A stretch of DNA of 64,000 nucleotides. Origin: Dehalococcoidia bacterium (GTDB lineage Bacteria; Chloroflexota; Dehalococcoidia; Lucifugimonadales; UBA3495). A model generated the notes under the pieces. The model ran no database searches, was not told the origin of the DNA, and was given only the letters and a program-made list of their open reading frames with translations. Location: assembly GCA_034428795.1 (NCBI GenBank), contig DAOUHF010000131.1, forward strand, positions 24,382-88,381, in the 5' to 3' direction. Each line of letters opens with the position of its first letter. Positions within the stretch are counted from its first letter, which is position 1. The position numbers were made by a program, and so were the translations under genes. Positions 1-60,222 of this stretch are shown piece by piece.

Positions 1-439
1 TTTCAGGGTCGCTAAACTCCCGGCGCAACTCCCGGAAGAACTCGTCGTCCACGTTCCGGTGGTCCGTTGCCATACGTTCGGCGAAGCGGATGGCCAGCTT
101 TTCCCGGTAAGGCAGGCCGGTGTCTTCGAAATGGGGCAGGGACGCCACCATTTCCTCGGTCATTCCCTGCTGCACCGCCGGCGCAGCGCGTCCCAGCTTT
201 CAAGTGGCGCACTCGTTCAGCTCGGCTATCTTGAGACGGACCAACTCCTTCAGCCGCGCCGGGAGCAGACCTCCCAATTTCAGCGGCCCGTAGAACGCCC
301 AGAACGCTTCGTATACCTCGGGCAGGTTCCCTGCGGCCTGGAAGATGCGCGGGTTGAGCTTGTGGGCCGCGGCTTCATCGGCAATCTTCCGCAACCCCGG
401 GGTAAGCTGCTCCCTTGGCACCAGCTTGATTCGCGCCAT
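1..439 (-). CDS. Carboxymuconolactone decarboxylase / AhpD-like family protein, candidate selenoprotein (in-frame TGA at 200-202). The C-terminus runs off the left window edge.
   Basis: Track ORF 200..439 ends ...LKIAELNECAT at TGA. The same frame stays open to nt 1 and reads KLGRAAPAVQQGMTEEMVASLPHFEDTGLPYREKLAIRFAERMATDHRNVDDEFFRELRREFSDPE, a typical CMD-family second half. The TGA occupies the second Cys of the CxxC motif (C-A-T-TGA). Confidence 0.7.
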
Positions 440-480
440 GTCATTTCCTTTTTAGCGTAGATAACACAGAGAACAAGCCA

Positions 481-790
481 GGGAACATCTGAACAAGTCC
501 TTCCCCCCGATGGGGGAAGGTTAGGATGGGGGCGCCGGCCCTCACAAGTCCCTCCCCCCCGATGGGGGAAGGTTAGGATGGGGGCGCCGGCCCTCACAAG
601 TCCCTTCCCTCCGATGGGGCAAGGTTAGGATGGGGGTGCCGCGCTCACAAGTCCCTTCCCCCCGATGGAGGAAGGTTAGGATGGGGGCGTCGGCGCTCAT
701 TTGATAGCTAATACCGTTAAGCTCTCCTCCGAGATTTCGGCTTTCGCCTCAGTGACCATAACTTGGACCATAACTTGTTCAGAGGTTCCC
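481..790. mobile_element. MITE-like composite repeat (family 1) with terminal inverted repeats and four internal ~52-bp hairpin units
   Basis: Left end GGGAACATCTGAACAAGT (481-498) is the inverted copy of the right end ACTTGTTCAGAGGTTCCC (773-790). The interior has 4 tandem units (about 489-697), each with CCTTCCCCC..GGGGGAAGG plus TTAGGATGGGGG, followed by a unique tail. There is no ORF of its own. Related copies are at 19105, 35772, 42187 and 46004. Confidence 0.6.
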
Positions 791-7638: not shown

Positions 7639-12003
<4,365 letters not shown>

Positions 12004-12026
<23 letters not shown>

Positions 12027-13032
12027 GGCCGCCACCTCGGACAGAGTAATCGACGGGCCAGGTCTAGACCTCTCGGTTGACCTGGCCCCCGGCAATCCCC
12101 GCCATCTCCGGCTGAAAAACCCGGTGATGATCGCATCGGGCACCTTTGGCTACGACGGGTACGGCCGTGGCATGACTGCCGCCATGGATCTCGCCGCCCT
12201 CGGCGCCGTCATACCCAAGACGGTTACCCGTAACCCCCGCGAGGGAAACCCGGAGCCCAGATGGTACCCGGAGTCGTACCGGAAGGCTTGGGGAGACGGG
12301 GACCGGCTGTTCTTGAATTCCATCGGGTTGACGAACCCCGGCATTGACGCGGCCATGAGCGACCTGGCCCCAGAATGGGCCGGATGGAATGCCACCGTGT
12401 TGCTCAGCTTCGCGGCCGACAGCGTGGGCCAGTTCGCCGAAATGGCCGGTATCGCCCAAGGAGTGCCCGGCTTCCAGGCCATAGAGTTGAACCTGAGCTG
12501 CCCCAATGTGGATGACGGCGCGTTGTTCAGCCACAGCGCCGCCTTGACCCACGACGCGGTGGCGGCCGTCAAGGCAAACACCGACCTGCCGGTCTTGGCC
12601 AAGCTGGCCCCCAACGTGCCGGACATCACCCGGATCGCGAAGGCGGCCGTCGCCGGCGGCGCCGATGCCCTGACCATTTGCAACACGATTCCCGCCATGC
12701 GCATCGACACTTCGACACGCCGGATGGTGCTGGGCAACGTCACCGGCGGGCTTTCCGGAGAGGGCTTGCGGCCCATCTCCCTGGCCCTGGTGTACCAGAC
12801 CTCCCGAACGGTGGATGTGCCAGTCATTGGCGTCGGCGGGATCTTCCACGCGGAACACGCCTTGGAATACCTCTTGGCGGGCGCCTCCGCCGTGCAGGTC
12901 GGCAGCGCCAACCTTGTCGGCTTGGACGCCCCCTGGCGCATTCTGGAAGAGTTAAGGGGACTGCTGGTAGAATCAGATGTAACCAGCTTGGGCCAACTGC
13001 GGTGCGCGGTCGGTCCGGCGTTGGCCGGTTAG
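12004..13032 (+). CDS. pyrD: Dihydroorotate dehydrogenase (class 1 catalytic subunit). The start is uncertain.
   Basis: [48 protein letters not shown]. There is no ATG after the rpoC stop that keeps the conserved N-terminus. GTG 12004 has GGAGG about 12 nt upstream and overlaps the rpoC end. Confidence 0.8.
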
Positions 13033-13046
13033 AGGGAAATTAAGCC

Positions 13047-13412
13047 ATGGAAGTCCAGGACCACATCGCAACCGCGAACGAGTTTCTGGAAGCGGCTGAC
13101 CGCGAGTTTGCCGCCGGGGACCAGTTGCAAGGCTCGGAAAAGCTCTGGGGCGCGGCGGCCCACGCACTGCTGTCAGTGGCTATGGAGAGGGGCTGGCCCG
13201 GCCACAACCACCAAGCGATGAGAACAGCGGTGCAAAGGCTCGTCGATGAATATAACGACCCTGGCATCCTCGCCGGTTTCCTGTCGGCGGAGAAATTTCA
13301 CCGCAACTTTTACCACTATTTCATGGAAGAGTTTGAATACCCGGTAGACCGCCAGGTCGTGCGCGACTTCGTGGCCCGGCTCAATAGTATCCGTAACACC
13401 CCACAAGCCTAG
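13047..13412 (+). CDS. PaREP1-like small helical protein, recalled family pattern
   Basis: 121 aa. ANEFLEAADREFAAGDQLQGSEKLWGAAAHALLSVAMERGW matches my memory of the PaREP1 pattern (A.EFL..A......GD..QASEK.WGA...A). Not verified. Confidence 0.4.
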   Translation: MEVQDHIATANEFLEAADREFAAGDQLQGSEKLWGAAAHALLSVAMERGWPGHNHQAMRTAVQRLVDEYNDPGILAGFLSAEKFHRNFYHYFMEEFEYPVDRQVVRDFVARLNSIRNTPQA

Positions 13413-22030: not shown

Positions 22031-22487
22031 CCTATCCCTTCCGTCTTTCCGGCGAACGCCGGAATCCACGTGGCCCCCCCCGTGTCTGTATACCCGCGAC
22101 ATCCCCCCGTCTTTCCGGCGAACGCCGGAATCCACGTGGCCCCCCGGTGTCCGTATACCCGCGCATCCCCACCGTCTTTCCGGCGAACGCCGGAATCCAC
22201 GTAACCCCACGGTGTCTGTATCCACGCGCATCCCTTCCGTCTTTCCGGCGAACGCCGGAATCCACGCGGCCCCCCGTGTCTGCATCCACGGCATCCCTTC
22301 CGTCTTTCCGGCGAACGCCGGAATCCACGTAGCCCCGGGTGTCTGTATCCATGCGCATCCCTTCCGTCTTTCCGGCGCACGCCGGAATCCACGTGGCCCC
22401 CCCGTGTCTGTATACCCGCGACATCCCCCCGGTCTTTCCGGCGAACGCCGGAATCCACGTGGCCACCCGGTGTCTGTATCCACGCGA
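22031..22487. repeat. Tandem array of 7 x ~62-65-bp units (family 2, core hairpin TTCCGGCGAACGCCGGAA)
   Basis: The unit ATCCCTTCCGTCTTTCCGGCGAACGCCGGAATCCACGTGGCCCCCCGTGTCTGTATCCACGCGC is repeated head-to-tail with only point differences. It yields spurious ORFs in several frames (WIPAFAGKT / SVFPANAGIH). Confidence 0.9.
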
Positions 22488-22513: not shown

Positions 22514-22792
22514 TCAGCCTCCCCCGATGGCGGGGAGGAAATGAACCTCGCTGTTTTCCTGCACACGCTCGATCAAGCCGAGCAGGCTTGTCTCTCCGTC
22601 GACGATTACCGCGATGCCCGGTATCAAATCGTCTTCCTCTTCGTCGATCAGGAACGCCCGGGTGCCGGGGTAGTCCTTCTCCAGGTTGTTAATCACTTGG
22701 CGGACGGTCGCGCCGGCGACCTGTACCTGCTGCTTCCCACCGGTCAACTGCTGCAACCGGGGAGGAACCCATACCTCTGGCATTGGCGTCAC
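22514..22792 (-). CDS. MoaD/ThiS-family ubiquitin-like sulfur-carrier protein
   Basis: 92 aa with a beta-grasp-like pattern, ending ...HFLPAIGGG (C-terminal Gly-Gly). Confidence 0.7.
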   Translation of the reverse strand: MTPMPEVWVPPRLQQLTGGKQQVQVAGATVRQVINNLEKDYPGTRAFLIDEEEDDLIPGIAVIVDGETSLLGLIERVQENSEVHFLPAIGGG

Positions 22793-42186: not shown

Positions 42187-42299
42187 TCCCCATCCTAACC
42201 TTCCCCCATCGGGGGGAAGGGACTTGTTCGGAGGAGAGCTTAACGGCCCCCATCCTAACCTTCCCCCATCGGGGGGAAGGGACTTGGGCAGATGTTCCC
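42187..42299. repeat. Family-1 repeat, two hairpin units in inverse orientation plus a TIR
   Basis: CCCCATCCTAACCTTCCCCCATCGGGGGGAAGGGACTTG occurs twice, ending ACTTGGGCAGATGTTCCC. Confidence 0.75.
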
Positions 42300-46003: not shown

Positions 46004-46114
46004 GGGAACCTCTGAACAAGTTACGGTCATTGAGGCGAAAGCCGAAATCTCGGAAGAGAGCTTAACGGCCCCCATCCTAACCTTCCCCCATCGGGGGGAA
46101 GGGACTTGTTCAGG
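46004..46114. repeat. Family-1 repeat copy (TIR, tail and one hairpin unit, inverse order)
   Basis: taGGGAACCTCTGAACAAGTTACGGTCATTGAGGCGAAAGCCGAAATCTCGGAAGAGAGCTTAACGG CCCCCATCCTAACCTTCCCCCATCGGGGGGAAGGGACTTGTTCAGGta. Confidence 0.75.
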
Positions 46115-51711: not shown

Positions 51712-53043
51712 ATGGACAGTATTACACTTCAGAACTATCGGTGCTTTAGAGAAGAGCAGACGGCCCGCCTAGCCCCGTTGACGCTTCTTGTGGGCGAGAA
51801 CAGCACGGGAAAGACATCTTTCCTGGCATTGGTCCGGGCCCTATGGGATATCGCGTTCCAGAATAATGTTCCGAACTTTCAGGAAGAGCCATATAACCTT
51901 GGGGCCTTCCGGGACATCACCCACAAGCGTAGCAGTCCGGGCGGTCAAGCTGATTCGTTTGAAGCGGGGTTTGAATACCACCGTCCTCAGCGTGCCCGCA
52001 ATAGAAGACTAGAAGGGGTTTCGTTCCGGGCGACATTTGAGGACCGGAGAGGGTCCCCTTTTCCGGTGACAAGAAGCCTTTACCGTAGGGACGCTTGGCT
52101 GGAGGCCCACGATAAAGAAGACGGAGGGCATTTGCTGCGCTTCGGTACGGGGAAAAGCAACGAGGAATACTCAGCTGAGTCGAACATACTCTCACGAGAC
52201 GATGATAATTTGGTCTCCTTTAGACAAATGTTTTGGGATATCAACCGTGGCAGCAGATCAGATGAGCCGTCTACACCGAACGAGAAAGAGATAGAGGACT
52301 TAGTCTCCAGTCTCAGTATTCCACCTTCGAATCTTGTCCGGGAGCGTCCGTTCGCCAGCGCGCCGGTGCGTACCCGCCCCCGGCGGACATACGACCCAAC
52401 GCGGCCTTCGCGGGATCCCGAAGGAGAGTACATCCCCACCTACCTTGCCAGCGAGTTTCATCGCGGCCAAAAAAGCTGGAAGGAGTTGAAAAGCGCTCTT
52501 GAACAGTTTGGCCAAAATTCCGGGCTGTTCGACGAGATCAACGTCAAGTCCTTGGGCAAGACCGAGGGTACGCCGTTCCAATTGGAAGTCCGAAAGTTTG
52601 GCAAGAGAACGAAAGGACCCCCAAGAAACCTGATCGACGTAGGATACGGCGTGAGCCAGGCGTTGCCGATCCTGACCGAACTTTTGCGGCCTGATTCGTC
52701 CGCCATGTTCTTGTTGCAACAGCCGGAGGTCCATCTCCATCCTATGGCCCAGGCAGCCTTGGGCAGTCTGTTCTGCTCTATTGCTAGGCCAAACCGCCAA
52801 CTCATCGTCGAGACCCATAGCGACTATATTATCGACCGCGTTCGCATGGACATTCGAGATAAGAAGTCGCCACTCAAACCTGAGGACGTTTCCATCCTGT
52901 ACTTCGAGCCGGGAGAACTCGAAGTAAATATCCGTTCTATTCGCTTGGACGACATGGGCAATGTTTTGGATGCGCCGCCGGGTTACGGACAATTCTTCAT
53001 GGAAGAAGTAAGGCGCTCCGTCGGAATGGGTATCAGGGCCTGA
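51712..53043 (+). CDS. ABC/SMC-type AAA family ATPase (AAA_15/21, DUF3696-like C-terminus)
   Basis: Walker A LLVGENSTGKTSF, Walker B/D-loop MFLLQQPEVHLHP and H-loop VETHSDYIIDR. Visibly lower GC than the flanks. Confidence 0.75.
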   Translation: MDSITLQNYRCFREEQTARLAPLTLLVGENSTGKTSFLALVRALWDIAFQNNVPNFQEEPYNLGAFRDITHKRSSPGGQADSFEAGFEYHRPQRARNRRLEGVSFRATFEDRRGSPFPVTRSLYRRDAWLEAHDKEDGGHLLRFGTGKSNEEYSAESNILSRDDDNLVSFRQMFWDINRGSRSDEPSTPNEKEIEDLVSSLSIPPSNLVRERPFASAPVRTRPRRTYDPTRPSRDPEGEYIPTYLASEFHRGQKSWKELKSALEQFGQNSGLFDEINVKSLGKTEGTPFQLEVRKFGKRTKGPPRNLIDVGYGVSQALPILTELLRPDSSAMFLLQQPEVHLHPMAQAALGSLFCSIARPNRQLIVETHSDYIIDRVRMDIRDKKSPLKPEDVSILYFEPGELEVNIRSIRLDDMGNVLDAPPGYGQFFMEEVRRSVGMGIRA

Positions 53044-53511
53044 ATGTGCGCAATTATAGACAATAACGTGCGGCACGAAGTTTTTGGGGAGAATCCGACG
53101 GAAGCGGGGAATTTCTTTCTCGTATGGCTGGACCGCAAAGGGCAGTTAGTCGTTGGAGGCAAACTCCTACAAGAACTCCTGGGTTATCGGCGTTTCGAAA
53201 TGTGGCTTCGTGTGGCATCAAGACTAGGCCGTGCCATTCGCATTGCCGATGAAACCGTAGACACCGATGCCCAATCTCTACGCGATGATGGGATTTGCCG
53301 GTCGAACGATGAACATGTCCTCGCTTTGGCCAGAGTCAGCGGAGCCCGTCTGCTTTTCACCAACGACGGTTATTTGCAGGGGGACTTCAAGAATCCTGAG
53401 ATAATCGATGGTGTCCGTGGGAGGGTATACACTACTCAACTATCTAAAGACGTTCGCCGTGCACATAGAGACCTGCTGAATCGTAACGATCTTTGCGCGG
53501 CCCGTGGCTAA
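53044..53511 (+). CDS. PIN-like domain protein (putative nuclease)
   Basis: 155 aa. MCAIIDNNV (first Asp), LLQEL and SNDEHVLALARVSGARLLFTNDGYLQGDF (PIN-like D..lA.A...a.LvT.D.dF). The ATG directly follows the ATPase TGA. Confidence 0.5.
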   Translation: MCAIIDNNVRHEVFGENPTEAGNFFLVWLDRKGQLVVGGKLLQELLGYRRFEMWLRVASRLGRAIRIADETVDTDAQSLRDDGICRSNDEHVLALARVSGARLLFTNDGYLQGDFKNPEIIDGVRGRVYTTQLSKDVRRAHRDLLNRNDLCAARG

Positions 53512-55938: not shown

Positions 55939-56403
55939 TCAGGTTACGTCGTCCATCGCAGCGAGAATCGAATCGACGTCGGGCAGCACGCCGGGCACGT
56001 AAGTCTCCCGGAACCGTATGACGCCATTTGTGTCCACCACGAGCACTGCGCGGTTGCTGGCGCCGCGCTCTTCGTTCCAGAGGTCGTAGTCGGTGCTGAC
56101 TTTCCCCTTGGGGTGCCAGTCGGACAGCTCCGGATAGGGCAGGCCGCCCATGGCGGTGGCCCAAGCCCTGTGGGAGTGAACGTGGTCGCAACTGATGCCC
56201 AGTACCTGGGCATTCTTCTCTTCGAACCGGCCGATGGCCTGGCGGAAGGAAGTGGCCTGGCTGGTTCAACCAGACGTGAAATCGAACACGTGGAACGACA
56301 GGACCACATGCTTCTCGCCCCGGTAGCTGCTCAATGTAATGTCGCCTTCACTCACGGACGGAAGAGTGAAATCAGGCGCAACGTCGCCGACATCTGCTGG
56401 CAT
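55939..56403 (-). CDS. Peroxiredoxin (AhpC/TSA family), candidate selenoprotein (in-frame TGA at 56266-56268)
   Basis: Reading from ATG 56403 gives MPADVGDVAPDFTLPSVSEGDITLSSYRGEKHVVLSFHVFDFTSG-TGA-TSQATSFRQAIGRFEEKNAQVLGISCDHVHSHRAWA..., continuing in-frame into track ORF 55939..56151. The TGA replaces the peroxidatic Cys (T-x-x-C). Confidence 0.75.
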
Positions 56404-57416: not shown

Positions 57417-58184
57417 TTAGATCAGCGCGTCCGGGGTTTGGATGCCGTCCAGATCGGTTTCGGTGGCCGGGTCGTTCAGCGTCATGCCTAGGTCGGTCTG
57501 CATGTAGTGGTAGACCTGCTTCAGGTGGTGGGTGCTGTGGCTGAGGACGATGTTCAGCAACTCCAGCACTGTGACCTCACCGCCGTAATGGGCCGGGACC
57601 TCGCGTTCGAAGCCGGCAGTATTGCCGCTGTTCAGGAAAGCGATGATGCCGTCGCGGACCTTCAGTCCATACTCGGCGATGGCCGGGCCAGCGACCACTC
57701 CCTTCAGCCGCTCGTCCTGCGCGCTCATATCATCCCAACTCATGCTGCCCACTTCGTGCGAGAGGTAGGCGATTTCGGGGAACGCCAGGATGTGCACCAC
57801 CGTGTCGCGCAGGCTCCAAGGCCGCCACGGTACGATGGCGTCCAACTGCTCTTGGGTGAACTGGTTGTTGGCCCGCACGGCGGCGCTCATCACGATGCCA
57901 TACTTTTCGGCCAGCCAGGACGTTTTGCCCGAGAGATCGACGGTGACGTCAAGCTTGAGGGCCGGAATCAGCTTCTTGGGGTAGTAGCCGATGATGACCT
58001 CGGCGTCGTCTATGATGGTCACCGGCAGCGACTTGATGCCGCGGCTGCGGAGATGCTCCACGGCGGCGGGTTCGCTCAGCAGATCGTGGTGCTCGTATGG
58101 AACGCCATTGGACTTGAGGAACTCTTCCAGAGTCCGGCAACTGAATCAACCAGGCTGGGTGTAGACCTGGACGTCCATGACCAT
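57417..58184 (-). CDS. Glutaredoxin-like / DinB-domain fusion protein, candidate selenoprotein (in-frame TGA at 58146-58148)
   Basis: From ATG 58184 (AAGGAGG upstream) the frame reads MVMDVQVYTQPG-TGA-FSCRTLEEFLKSNGVPYEHHDLLSEPAAVEHLRSRGIKSLPVTIIDDAEVIIGYYP..., in frame with track ORF 57417..58061. The C-terminal half is DinB-like (...LLNIVLSHSTHHLKQV). Confidence 0.7.
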
Positions 58185-58299: not shown

Positions 58300-60222
58300 A
58301 TGCTCGGTAACCTGGTTTCAATCGCGCTTTTTGCGCTTTGCCTACTGGCCTCGTTGGCCTGCACCCGCACGTTCACCGCAGAACCACCTATACCGATCCC
58401 AACACCGCAACCAATCGCCACGCCGGTCCCTACAAACACGCCGCGTCCGACTGCCACGCCGGTCCCTACGAGCACACCCCGTCCGATTGCCACGCCGGTC
58501 CCTACGAACACGCCCCGTCCGATTGCTATGCCAGTCCCTACAAATACACCGCGTCCGACTGCTACACCGGTTCCTACAAGCATACCGCGTCCGACTGCTA
58601 CGCCCCAACCAACTGCTACCGCGACGCCCGAGCCGACCGCCACTCCGTCGCCGACCCCCAAGCCCAAGGCAGAATGCCCGACGGTGACGCCGGAGCTGGC
58701 TACCTCTGTAACCGGGATTGGGGACGGCGTCTCATTGACCATGACGCCCGGAACCCCATTCGCCGGGACCAACGTGTCCTTCGAAATGACTGGCCTGAAT
58801 TCGGGAGAATGGGTCGAGGTGACTTTTGTAGACCCGGAGGGACAGGAAGCCGGTTGGGTTACCGACGAGGACGCCCGGGCATCCTGGACCACCCAACCCT
58901 TCCGGGCCGACGACCACGGGACCGTCGGCTGGGTGCGGTACGGGGCGCAGGACCAACCTGGAGATTGGTCGGTCAGCATTCAGTCGGGCGGGTCGGCGAG
59001 CATGGTCAAATACAAGACCACGCCGTTCCGGCTGCCCCTGATGAGCGTTTGCACGGTCCTTGGGGTCCGCCTCGTCAACTGCCACAGCGAACAGGCGGAA
59101 ATCCTGTTCTCGGATTCAGTCCACTTCGCCATGACCGTCGATATGCACCGCCAACTGGAACGGGCGGTCGGCCTGTTGGAGGAACGGCTGGGAGTCCGCA
59201 GCAGCGAGGTCCCGGTCATTCACTTGGTGGGCAGCAAAAACGAGCTGGACACGGTCAATCGGGCCACCGGCGGCGAGCCCCGCTGGGAAGCCGGGTTCTT
59301 CCGAAGCTGGGGAGACAACCCCGGTATATATGCCCATACTGACAAACCGCTGACCGACGTCTACAACATGCTCACCCATGAATACGTGCATTTCCTGATT
59401 TACGAAATATCCGGGGGCGAAGTGCTGCCTGCCTGGCTGAACGAAGGGCTGGCCGAGTATTACGCGTTCGAAGTCGGACTGTTGGGAGAACGCCCCCAAG
59501 CGACCGTCTGGCGCATGCTGCGCAGCGCCGACCAGGCGCGAGAGGCGGCTGAAGCTGGAAATCTCTTCCCCCTGAGTGAACTCGAGAGCCAGAGAGACTG
59601 GAACTCCCGTAACGGCGGTGAGCGGGTCTCGTTGCAATACTCCCATAGTCACATGCTGGTCCGCTACATCACCGAGTCCTACGGGGCGGCCGCGCCACTG
59701 CGAATGGTCGAACGGATCGGCGACGGAGAGACCCTCGCATCAGCAGTACGCGCCGTCGCCAGCGTGGACTACCCCCAGTTGGAGCAGGACTTCGTAACCT
59801 GGTTGGTCCAATGGGACGAACCTGTACGGGCCGAGTCCCGGCCGTATATCCAAACTCTCGATGAGCTTCTAGCCGCGCGACACACCATACGCGAACGCCG
59901 GGAAGTATTGATAAAGGAATGGAACCTCGGGTTTGACCGGGCCGCTTCGAAAGCGGCTATGGAACCACTGGTGAAAGAAATGGCCGGCTTGATGCAGCGG
60001 CTGGAAGAAGCTTCAACGCCCGAATCCCTGAGCGACCTGCATGAAGCGGCGCTAACCTATCTTGGCGCCTACCAGGAATTCATCAACGAGGACTTGAAGT
60101 TCTTCAGCACAGGTCAGCCGTCCAACCCGGACAAAGACCGGGAATTACGCTCAATTTTGAGAATTTGGGGCACCGCAGTCGAAAGCCTGCTAAGCGACGC
60201 CAAATTCGTTCTGAACCTGTGA
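58300..60222 (+). CDS. Secreted or lipoprotein-like zinc metallopeptidase (Peptidase_MA-like) with a Pro/Thr-rich tandem-repeat linker
   Basis: Signal-like N-terminus ...ALCLLASLAC, then 5 x TPVPTNTPRPxA. The motif HEYVHFL...NEGLAEYY gives HExxH plus a downstream Glu. Confidence 0.7.
   Translation: MLGNLVSIALFALCLLASLACTRTFTAEPPIPIPTPQPIATPVPTNTPRPTATPVPTSTPRPIATPVPTNTPRPIAMPVPTNTPRPTATPVPTSIPRPTATPQPTATATPEPTATPSPTPKPKAECPTVTPELATSVTGIGDGVSLTMTPGTPFAGTNVSFEMTGLNSGEWVEVTFVDPEGQEAGWVTDEDARASWTTQPFRADDHGTVGWVRYGAQDQPGDWSVSIQSGGSASMVKYKTTPFRLPLMSVCTVLGVRLVNCHSEQAEILFSDSVHFAMTVDMHRQLERAVGLLEERLGVRSSEVPVIHLVGSKNELDTVNRATGGEPRWEAGFFRSWGDNPGIYAHTDKPLTDVYNMLTHEYVHFLIYEISGGEVLPAWLNEGLAEYYAFEVGLLGERPQATVWRMLRSADQAREAAEAGNLFPLSELESQRDWNSRNGGERVSLQYSHSHMLVRYITESYGAAAPLRMVERIGDGETLASAVRAVASVDYPQLEQDFVTWLVQWDEPVRAESRPYIQTLDELLAARHTIRERREVLIKEWNLGFDRAASKAAMEPLVKEMAGLMQRLEEASTPESLSDLHEAALTYLGAYQEFINEDLKFFSTGQPSNPDKDRELRSILRIWGTAVESLLSDAKFVLNL

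What the first reader, a model, noticed from the sequence alone, without database searches (positions are those of the whole stretch)
1..439. AhpD-like (CMD family) gene with TGA at the second position of CxxC: likely selenocysteine, not a truncation
The ORF caller stops at TGA 200-202 after ...LNECAT. The same frame continues without stops to the window edge and encodes a textbook CMD-family second half (…TEEMVASL…REKLAIRFAERMA…DDEFFRELRREFSDPE). The TGA gives C-A-T-U in place of the family CxxC.

Twelve nt downstream, the mRNA can form GCUGCGCC-GGC-GGUGCAGC (plus-strand 169-187), an 8-bp stem with a G-rich triloop. That position is appropriate for a bacterial SECIS. AhpD-like selenoproteins are an established bacterial selenoprotein family. 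Two further redox genes in this window show the same phenomenon.
Basis: partly seen in the sequence, partly recalled or inferred. Interest (0 to 1): 0.6.

Follow-up and report, generated by a model that had tools for sequence, protein, structure and literature searches.

The report
AhpD-like selenoprotein gene with SECIS hairpin
The apparent stop codon inside this small redox-enzyme gene is almost certainly read as selenocysteine, a well-known kind of recoding, and gene callers have wrongly split this gene into two pieces in every database entry found.

Summary

- **Gene.** A minus-strand gene starts at ATG 439-437. It carries an in-frame TGA at 202-200 and runs off the window edge.
- **Family.** Read through, it is a single CMD/AhpD-fold domain. 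The TGA sits at the second Cys of CxxC, giving C-A-T-U.
- **Conservation.** The same codon is TGA in 111 loci: the window, 37 species genomes (mostly Dehalococcoidia MAGs) and 73 metagenome contigs. It is TGC/TGT in 7 and never TAA/TAG.
- **Translation downstream.** The codons after the TGA show the same three-base periodic conservation as those before it.
- **Hairpin.** Twelve nt after the TGA lies an 8-bp hairpin with a GGC triloop. It keeps its register across clades. Seven of 8 pairs show compensatory changes. It meets all four published bacterial SECIS structural criteria. The Cys-codon homologs lack it.
- **Other genes.** Two more genes in the window, a TxxU peroxiredoxin and a UxxC glutaredoxin-DinB fusion, show the same pattern.
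- **Not tested.** selA/B/D and tRNA-Sec are absent from the sequence held, so the genome-wide machinery remains unchecked.

AhpD-like CxxU selenoproteins have been known since 2005. This is a new member of a known kind. No curated NCBIfam model reaches its cut-off for it. It is of modest interest.

The parts
446..450 (-). Shine-Dalgarno-like AAGGA, 6 nt upstream of the start codon
   Evidence: Read directly from the sequence; not tested further.
437..439 (-). ATG start codon of the AhpD-like gene
   Evidence: The N-terminus MARIKLVP is conserved in all Dehalococcoidia homologs.
203..439 (-). Codons 1-79, the part that gene callers report as a separate 79-aa ORF. It holds Glu65 and Cys77 (TGC 211-209).
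   Evidence: This exact 79-aa product is on record in 59 index blocks of public assemblies; 22 contigs were read.
200..202 (-). In-frame TGA, codon 80, read as selenocysteine (C-A-T-U, the second position of CxxC)
   Evidence: TGA in 111 loci, Cys codon in 7, never TAA/TAG. It aligns with the second Cys of CAYC in PA0269.
169..187 (-). SECIS hairpin. The 5' arm is 187-180 (GCUGCGCC), the triloop is 179-177 (GGC) and the 3' arm is 176-169 (GGUGCAGC). There are 20 nt between the UGA and the loop.
   Evidence: 93.5% of cells are paired and 7 of 8 pairs carry changes on both sides. RNAalifold gives the same structure. A mean of 7.6 of 8 positions pair in 73 distinct Sec sequences, against 3.7 of 8 in Cys forms. 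Third-codon-position diversity is halved over these codons.
2..199 (-). Codons 81-146, holding Arg84 and the second half of the CMD fold. The window edge cuts the gene here.
   Evidence: Contig L131 is 99.9% identical to the window and shows 31 more codons and a stop, giving 177 codons in all. Diversity at codon positions 1/2/3 is 0.078/0.057/0.372 downstream and 0.077/0.054/0.416 upstream.

Best explanation
This is a 177-codon gene for a selenocysteine-containing member of the CMD/AhpD-like oxidoreductase superfamily, in a Dehalococcoidia (Chloroflexota) genome. The window holds 146 of the 177 codons.

Decoding (inferred). When the ribosome reaches UGA codon 80, SelB carrying Sec-tRNA(Sec) binds the hairpin that begins 12 nt downstream. 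The hairpin has an 8-bp stem and a GGC triloop with G in loop positions 1 and 2. Selenocysteine is inserted instead of termination.

Product. A single-domain helical protein with a Cys77-x-x-Sec80 redox centre. An invariant Glu lies 12 residues before the Cys. An invariant Arg lies 4 residues after the Sec, where classical AhpD has His.

Function (inferred from family membership). It most likely works as a thiol/selenol-based reductase. It could be a peroxidase-related enzyme or a reductant of a peroxiredoxin-type partner. Sec would be the attacking nucleophile and Cys77 the resolving residue.

Shown here: the recoding signature, namely the conserved TGA, translation of the downstream half, a co-varying SECIS and Cys-containing homologs.

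Inferred: the identity of the inserted residue as Sec, the role of SelB, and the catalytic chemistry.
For: - Fold. The read-through protein is one CMD domain spanning the TGA (Pfam; NCBIfam AhpD-type models; PDB CMD/AhpD structures aligned over residues 37-161).
- Database entries. All 48 homologs are fragments that end at C-x-x or begin just after it.
- Codon. 37 of 37 species genomes have TGA at this codon, followed by about 97 more in-frame codons. 73 of 80 metagenome loci have TGA and 7 have TGC/TGT.
- Translation downstream. Diversity is three-base periodic and synonymous changes dominate both upstream (14986 syn, 3565 non-syn) and downstream (14996, 4340).
- Hairpin covariation; 0 of 500 shuffles reach the observed pairing or covariation score, and sliding the partner drops pairing from 93.5% to 16-50%. 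RNAalifold predicts the same hairpin.
- Hairpin diversity. There are 21 distinct stem-loops encoding different peptides (AAPAVQQ, TAQAVQD, YAGARHA, FASMMHD, TPAAREQ). All share the same register, and 69 of 73 have a GGC loop.
- Control. The hairpin is absent from Cys forms.
- bSECIS criteria from PMC13188914: loop 3-9 nt, stem 4-16 bp, G in the first two loop positions, 16-37 nt spacing, MFE <= -7.5. The hairpin gives 3 nt, 8 bp, GG, 20 nt and -14.7 kcal/mol.
- Genetic code. TGA is an ordinary stop for 17 of 45 predicted genes in the window, so there is no genome-wide reassignment.
- Other genes. Two more genes in the window have TGA at the active-site Cys of a Prx and a Grx domain, and their homologs are split in the same way.
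- Literature. AhpD-like CxxU selenoproteins are established (PMC1088965; PMC2398784). Dehalococcoidia MAGs with 46-49 selenoproteins are listed in BSepDB (PMC13326102).
Against: - The Sec machinery (selA, selB, selD, tRNA-Sec) was not seen. The window and the 47 related loci scanned hold no tRNA. None of the 20 window ORFs scanned against Pfam is a sel gene. The rest of the genome could not be read.
- There is no proteomic or biochemical evidence for this subfamily.
- The hairpin is not energetically unusual for its composition.
- No Rfam family matches, though it is not clear that Rfam holds a bacterial SECIS model.
- The protein is below the curated cut-offs of the four NCBIfam selenoprotein or AhpD-like models considered.
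- The canonical AhpD His after the CxxC is replaced by Arg, so the chemistry may differ from AhpD.
- The loci were retrieved with peptide patterns taken from Sec forms, which inflates the Sec:Cys ratio.
Confidence: 0.93

Rival explanations
1. The UGA is recoded, but not as selenocysteine. The hairpin would stimulate near-cognate or suppressor read-through and insert Trp, Cys, Arg or Gly.
For: The Sec machinery could not be checked. Some pipelines already translate such TGAs as Trp, as in P0117 and P0343. One Grx-DinB homolog has Arg at the equivalent site, P0328.
Against: The site is the redox-active second Cys of CxxC, and its only sense-codon alternative in 118 loci is Cys. The hairpin meets the SelB-type bSECIS criteria, including the loop G's and the spacing. 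The same window has a TxxU peroxiredoxin; the review PMC13188914 lists that family among prokaryotic selenoproteins and cites a Sec-containing peroxiredoxin from Eubacterium acidaminophilum. TGA ends 17 of 45 genes in the window.
Confidence: 0.04
2. Two separate small proteins. The TGA is a true stop, and a second ORF starting at a downstream GTG or ATG makes the C-terminal half. The two halves assemble into a split CMD domain.
For: Every gene caller reports two ORFs, for example 79 aa and 85-92 aa starting MPAVQQGM or MASL.
Against: The called downstream starts differ between genomes. The codons between the TGA and those starts are conserved at the protein level in the same frame as the upstream half. 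The stop is always TGA, never TAA/TAG, in 111 loci. Cys-containing relatives are single chains. A co-varying hairpin at SECIS spacing has no role in this model.
Confidence: 0.02
3. Pseudogene or sequencing error. A nonsense mutation or miscall truncated an ordinary CxxC gene.
For: A single in-frame stop is what a fresh nonsense mutation would look like. One relative (L042/L130) really is disrupted, by a transposase insertion further downstream.
Against: The identical TGA occurs in 111 loci from at least four taxon labels (Dehalococcoidia, Binatia, Methylomirabilota and proteobacterial MAGs). The downstream half is under purifying selection equal to that of the upstream half.
Confidence: 0.01

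Closest known systems
AhpD-like selenoproteins (CxxU; 'AhpD-like 1' COG2128 and 'AhpD-like 2'/CMD-domain PF02627) from the Sargasso Sea and GOS selenoproteomes (PMC1088965, PMC2398784)
   Same: CMD/AhpD fold. Sec at the second position of CxxC. A small bSECIS hairpin directly downstream with G in the apical loop. Cys-containing homologs exist. No experimentally shown function.
   Different: Those families were defined mostly on marine reads. This clade was found mainly in Dehalococcoidia MAGs and in soil, sediment and marine metagenome contigs. Whether it lies inside 'AhpD-like 1' could not be tested, because COG2128 is not in the libraries available.
NCBIfam NF053654 'YciW-related (seleno)protein' (GroundWater_YciW)
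   Same: It is the best-scoring curated model. It aligns end to end (residues 1-153 to profile positions 1-155 of 179) and is itself a Sec/Cys family of the same architecture.
   Different: The score is 61 bits against a cut-off of 310, so this is a sister subfamily and not a member.
Mycobacterium tuberculosis AhpD (alkylhydroperoxidase D), the characterised prototype of the fold
   Same: A CxxC-type redox centre on a helical CMD domain, with an acidic residue 12 positions before the first Cys (Glu65 here). The equivalence to AhpD Glu118 rests on my recollection of the AhpD literature and was not tested.
   Different: Sec replaces the second Cys. Arg replaces the His found 4 residues after the motif (CxxCxxxH). 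No AhpC partner is adjacent. M. tuberculosis AhpD itself was not among the PDB sequence hits.
Pseudomonas aeruginosa PA0269 (PDB 2ijc/2o4d), a CMD-family protein
   Same: It is the closest solved structure by sequence (E = 2e-07, aligned over residues 39-161). Its CAYC aligns with CAT-U.
   Different: It is an all-Cys protein with His after the motif. The alignment begins at query residue 37-39, so it gives no counterpart for the first ~36 residues.

Membership tests
Bacterial selenoprotein gene (Sec-UGA plus bSECIS) | In-frame UGA followed by conserved, translated sequence in the same frame | tested here: met
   About 97 further codons follow. Diversity by codon position is 0.078/0.057/0.372 downstream and 0.077/0.054/0.416 upstream.
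Bacterial selenoprotein gene (Sec-UGA plus bSECIS) | UGA aligns with Cys in homologs (Sec/Cys pair) | tested here: met
   Seven loci carry TGC/TGT at this codon. Full-length cluster representatives have CxxC there. PDB PA0269 has CAYC.
Bacterial selenoprotein gene (Sec-UGA plus bSECIS) | bSECIS: 3-9 nt apical loop, 4-16 bp stem, G in the first two loop positions, 16-37 nt from the UGA to the loop, MFE <= -7.5 kcal/mol (criteria quoted from PMC13188914) | tested here: met
   Loop GGC (3 nt), 8 bp, 20 nt spacing, -14.7 kcal/mol. Seven of 8 pairs covary.
Bacterial selenoprotein gene (Sec-UGA plus bSECIS) | Genome encodes selA, selB, selD and tRNA-Sec | not testable with these tools
   There is no tRNA in the window or in the 47 related loci scanned. 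None of the 20 window ORFs scanned is a sel gene. The rest of the genome cannot be read. Indirect support comes from two more TGA-at-active-site genes in the window and from selenoprotein-rich Dehalococcoidia MAGs in BSepDB.
Bacterial selenoprotein gene (Sec-UGA plus bSECIS) | Selenium actually incorporated at the UGA | not testable with these tools
   This needs proteomics or 75Se labelling.
CMD / AhpD-like superfamily (Pfam PF02627) | Score above the Pfam gathering cut-off | tested here: met
   The read-through protein scores 30.9 bits against 23. The 79-aa fragment alone scores 20.2 and fails.
CMD / AhpD-like superfamily (Pfam PF02627) | CxxC redox motif at the conserved helix start | tested here: met
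   Present as C-A-T-U and aligned to CAYC of PA0269.
Classical AhpD (CxxCxxxH proton relay) | His four residues after the second Cys | tested here: not met
   Arg84 is invariant in alignments A1 and A3. The Cys-form relatives L076, L083, L108 and L126 also have Arg there.
NCBIfam NF053654 YciW-related (seleno)protein | Score above the curated cut-off (310 bits) | tested here: not met
   61.4 bits. Relatives from other clades score 55-79 bits.
NCBIfam TIGR01926 peroxidase-related enzyme (the model given for 'AhpD-like protein' selenoproteins in PMC13188914) | Score above the curated cut-off (81.8 bits) | tested here: not met
   37.2 bits. Relatives score 44-56 bits.
NCBIfam NF041047 (GSU3128 family) and NF041238 (AhpD-related CFYUT) selenoproteins | Score above the curated cut-offs (110 and 175 bits) | tested here: not met
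   NF041047 gives 14.3 bits for the window-derived 146-aa read-through and is not listed at E <= 0.001 for the full 177-aa protein. NF041238 gives no hit for this protein.

The most novel reading that the evidence does not exclude
The gene belongs to a distinct, so far unmodelled subfamily of AhpD/YciW-like proteins with these properties:
- It uses Sec almost obligately (111 of 118 loci; 41 of 60 informative cluster representatives).
- It has an invariant Glu...CxxU-xxx-Arg centre in place of the AhpD CxxCxxxH.
- It carries an unusually rigid SECIS: the same register and a GGC triloop across loci labelled Dehalococcoidia, Binatia, Methylomirabilota and proteobacterial.

This would point to a different catalytic arrangement, with Arg in place of His next to a selenolate. 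It would also point to spread of the gene together with its SECIS.
Probability: 0.4. Interest if true: 0.35.

Novelty: new member of a known kind. Interest (0 to 1): 0.3.

Why it matters
Annotation is the main practical point. All 48 public protein entries found for this gene are half-length fragments with no curated name. The gene is present in at least 37 species-level genomes. Two more genes in the same 64-kb window have the same defect: the peroxiredoxin is split in two, and the Grx-DinB fusion loses its Grx active site and is named only 'DinB family protein'. Redox and selenium-use inventories for Dehalococcoidia built from such annotations will therefore be undercounted.

The biology adds little that is new. 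It confirms that these Dehalococcoidia carry several selenoprotein genes, and it adds a well-supported SECIS alignment for one AhpD-like clade. The replacement of His by Arg next to the Sec is a small, testable biochemical question.

Tried and rejected
- Rfam at gathering thresholds over the whole window gave no match.
- Single-sequence folding does not separate the hairpin from shuffled sequence, so energy alone was dropped as evidence.
- The first MAFFT alignment of the 51-nt region put spurious gaps in L047. I replaced it with a 90-nt alignment anchored by coding flanks, which came out ungapped.
- A codon-usage screen for other read-through TGAs gave mostly antisense artefacts of rpoB, rpoC, secA and the P-type ATPase.
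- I rejected the 'C*C' candidate at 59740-59742. Its translation does not look protein-like, and it lies antisense to the + strand ORF 58300-60222.
- I judged the TGA at 53041-53043 to be the ordinary stop of a 443-aa ORF followed by a separate gene.
- Twenty window ORFs were scanned against Pfam for Sec machinery; none was a sel gene.
- tRNA-Sec was sought in the window and in 47 loci; none was found.
- The full protein's structure could not be predicted, because the tools refuse a translation containing a stop and accept only window or database sequences.
- I did not search for SelD, SelA or SelB homologs. I had no Dehalococcoidia query, and a word-indexed search with an E. coli sequence would list only close relatives of the query.
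- Gene neighbourhood gave no functional lead. The amidohydrolase-AhpD-like-glyoxalase order holds only within Dehalococcoidia and is not seen in the Binatia loci.

Full report
**What is in the sequence.**
- On the minus strand an ORF begins at ATG 439-437, 6 nt after an AAGGA.
- It reads MARIKLVPREQL...LKIAELNECAT and then meets TGA at 202-200.
- The same frame runs on for 66 codons (KLGRAAPAVQQGMTEEMVASL...RREFSDPE) until the window ends.
- Contig L131 (GCA_047517865.1, JAKZSA010000011.1) is 99.9% identical to the window. It supplies the missing end of 31 more codons and a stop, so the gene has 177 codons.

**Is it more than chance?** Taken alone, not clearly.
- The window is 62% G+C and holds 161 in-frame TGAs with at least 40 open codons on each side.
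- The hairpin folds no better than dinucleotide-preserving shuffles (z = +0.19 over 60 nt, -0.87 over 37 nt).
- Homology and comparison settle the matter instead.
- With the TGA read through, Pfam CMD (PF02627) matches residues 40-101 across the TGA, at 30.9 bits against a cut-off of 23. The 79-aa ORF alone fails at 20.2 bits.
- NCBIfam gives only AhpD-type models.
- Solved CMD/AhpD structures align over residues 37-161. CAYC of PA0269 lies on C-A-T-[TGA].

**Conservation of the TGA.**
- All 48 proteins found in the 5.8-billion-protein collection are fragments. They either end ...C-x-x (LNECAT, LNDCAT, LNQCYT, LNACRT) or begin a few residues after the TGA.
- The gene was found in 37 species-representative genomes. 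They are mostly Dehalococcoidia MAGs, plus a Candidatus Binatia MAG, two proteobacterial MAGs and a Methylomirabilota MAG. In all 37 the codon is TGA and the frame continues for about 97 codons.
- Among 80 metagenome contigs it is TGA in 73 and TGC/TGT in 7.
- Including the window, 111 loci have TGA, 7 have a Cys codon and none has TAA or TAG.
- L080 (NQCQL-TGA-IRAVYASARHQG) and L096 (NQCQL-C-IRLVYPSAREQG) are a close Sec/Cys pair.
- An index-free HMMER scan of 1.84 billion cluster representatives with the N-terminal half returned 68 hits. Of these, 41 end within two residues of the site and 19 continue past it. Most of the continuing ones I fetched have CxxC at the aligned position.

**The downstream half is translated.**
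- I compared 32 Dehalococcoidia genomes.
- Nucleotide diversity at codon positions 1/2/3 is 0.077/0.054/0.416 before the TGA and 0.078/0.057/0.372 after it.
- Synonymous differences outnumber non-synonymous ones about four to one on both sides.
- In the 12 codons that form the spacer and hairpin, third-position diversity falls to 0.19, against 0.40 in the rest of the downstream half. This is the expected mark of an RNA constraint laid over a coding one.

**The hairpin is a conserved structure.**
- The test used an ungapped 90-nt alignment of 25 distinct sequences.
- 93.5% of cells in the 8-bp helix form standard pairs, and 7 of 8 pairs show changes on both sides.
- No shuffle out of 500 reaches the observed pairing or covariation score.
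- Sliding the 3' partner by 1-3 columns drops pairing to 16-50%.
- RNAalifold, given no hint, predicts this helix and nothing else.
- Across all loci there are 21 different stem-loops. Examples are GCUGUGCC/GGUGCAGC, ACUGCACA/UGUGCAGG, UAUGCCGG/CCGGCAUG, UUUGCAUC/GAUGCAAG, ACUCCCGC/GCGGGAGC and UAUCCAUC/GAUGGAUA.
- They encode different peptides but keep the same register, and 69 of 73 distinct sequences have a GGC loop.
- A mean of 7.6 of 8 positions pair in Sec forms, against 3.7 of 8 in Cys forms.
- The published bacterial SECIS model asks for a loop of 3-9 nt, a stem of 4-16 bp, G in the first two loop positions, 16-37 nt between the UGA and the loop, and MFE <= -7.5 kcal/mol (PMC13188914). 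All are met: 3 nt, 8 bp, GG, 20 nt and -14.7 kcal/mol.

**Does this organism decode Sec?**
- The machinery could not be examined.
  - The window has no tRNA, and neither do 47 related loci.
  - The 20 window ORFs I scanned are ordinary genes. They include SecA, a P-type ATPase, H+-pyrophosphatase, ATP sulfurylase, DAHP synthase and trehalose-phosphate synthase.
- Indirect support is good.
  - TGA ends 17 of 45 predicted genes in the window, so the code is standard.
  - A peroxiredoxin gene (56403-55939, minus strand) has TGA at 56268-56266 in FDFTSG-U-TSQ, the TxxU peroxidatic position. The AhpC-TSA match (E = 7.5e-35) spans it.
  - Homologs of that peroxiredoxin are mostly C-terminal fragments. 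One has Cys (P0122), and some have the TGA translated as W (P0117).
  - A glutaredoxin-DinB fusion (58184-57417, minus strand) has TGA at 58148-58146 in QPG-U-FSC. Nearly all of the 120 best homologs listed start after it.
  - BSepDB lists Dehalococcoidia MAGs with 46 and 49 selenoproteins (PMC13326102).

**How it most likely works.**
- Inferred: SelB-GTP-Sec-tRNA(Sec) binds the GGC-loop hairpin as the ribosome reaches UGA-80 and inserts Sec.
- The product is a 177-residue CMD-fold protein with a Cys77-x-x-Sec80 centre.
- Glu65, twelve residues before Cys77, and Arg84, four after Sec80, are invariant in alignments that span 37-100% identity.
- From what I recall of M. tuberculosis AhpD, the second Cys is the nucleophile and is served by a Glu/His relay. 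This was not tested here.
- Sec at the second position would be the attacking residue and Cys77 the resolving one.
- Arg in place of His occurs in the Cys forms of this clade too, so it is a clade trait and not a consequence of Sec.
- The substrate is unknown. The neighbourhood (amidohydrolase upstream, glyoxalase-family gene downstream) holds only within Dehalococcoidia.

**Comparison with what is known.**
- AhpD-like (COG2128) and CMD-domain (PF02627) selenoproteins with CxxU were described from the Sargasso Sea in 2005 (PMC1088965).
- 'AhpD-like 1' was the fourth most abundant selenoprotein family in the GOS data (PMC2398784).
- The kind is therefore known.
- The present clade stays below every curated NCBIfam cut-off: NF053654 at 61 against 310 bits, TIGR01926 at 37 against 81.8, NF041047 below cut-off, and NF041238 with no hit.
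- None of the database entries seen for it is named as a selenoprotein.
- I file it as a new member of a known kind.

**Verdict.** Interest is modest at 0.3. The result is solid but unsurprising, and its main value is in correcting annotation.

Noticed in passing
window 55939-56403 (minus strand); TGA at 56266-56268: A 154-codon peroxiredoxin gene (AhpC-TSA, E = 7.5e-35) has an in-frame TGA at the peroxidatic Cys position (FDFTSG-U-TSQ, TxxU). Most database homologs are C-terminal fragments. One has Cys (P0122), and some have the TGA translated as Trp (P0117, P0126). The MFE fold of the 60 nt from the TGA scores z = -2.1, but its apical loop (AUC) does not obviously fit the G-in-loop rule.
   Followed up: partly
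window 57417-58184 (minus strand); TGA at 58146-58148: A 255-codon fusion of a glutaredoxin domain (residues 5-60) and a DinB_2 domain (108-224) has TGA in the Grx active site (QPG-U-FSC). Nearly all of the best 120 homologs are called from a start after the TGA, and those that carry a name are called 'DinB family protein', so the Grx active site is lost from annotation. No Cys form appeared among the sequences I checked; one has Arg (P0328) and one has W (P0343). The 2026 selenoproteome review does not mention DinB (0 occurrences), so the fusion may not be catalogued.
   Followed up: partly
window 493-699, 42187-42290, 46069-46112: A 52-nt dispersed intergenic repeat holds a CCTTCCCCC-ATC-GGGGGGAAGG hairpin. 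There are four tandem copies between the amidohydrolase gene and the AhpD-like gene, two copies at 42.2 kb and one at 46.1 kb. The block 467-789 is absent from the relatives L011 and L042, where the two genes are almost contiguous. L131 has five copies. It looks like a REP- or MITE-like element inserted into what is an operon in relatives.
   Followed up: partly
window 22034-22486: A tandem array of seven 65-nt units (87% matches) lies directly downstream of a ThiS-family gene (22514-22792, minus strand).
   Followed up: no
L042 3333-5047 (= L130 about 10333-12047): In one Dehalococcoidia MAG (CBDCUJ010000020.1) the AhpD-like gene is interrupted near codon 110 by an insertion of about 1.7 kb that carries a DDE transposase. 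That copy is a true pseudogene.
   Followed up: partly
window 58417-58619: Tandem repeats of 36 nt (5.2 copies) lie inside the 5' part of the + strand ORF 58300-60222, which has a low coding score (0.15).
   Followed up: no
window 51712-53511 (+ strand): A 443-aa ORF with a P-loop motif (LLVGENSTGKTS) and a low coding score (0.07) ends at TGA 53041-53043. A cysteine-containing ORF of about 155 aa follows immediately. Its composition differs from the rest of the window, so it may be a horizontally acquired gene pair. It was not scanned against any library.
   Followed up: no
window 13047-13412 (+ strand); also L128-L131: A PaREP1/PaREP8-family gene (Pfam calls the family archaeal) sits in this bacterial window, and further copies lie near the AhpD-like locus in relatives.
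   Followed up: no
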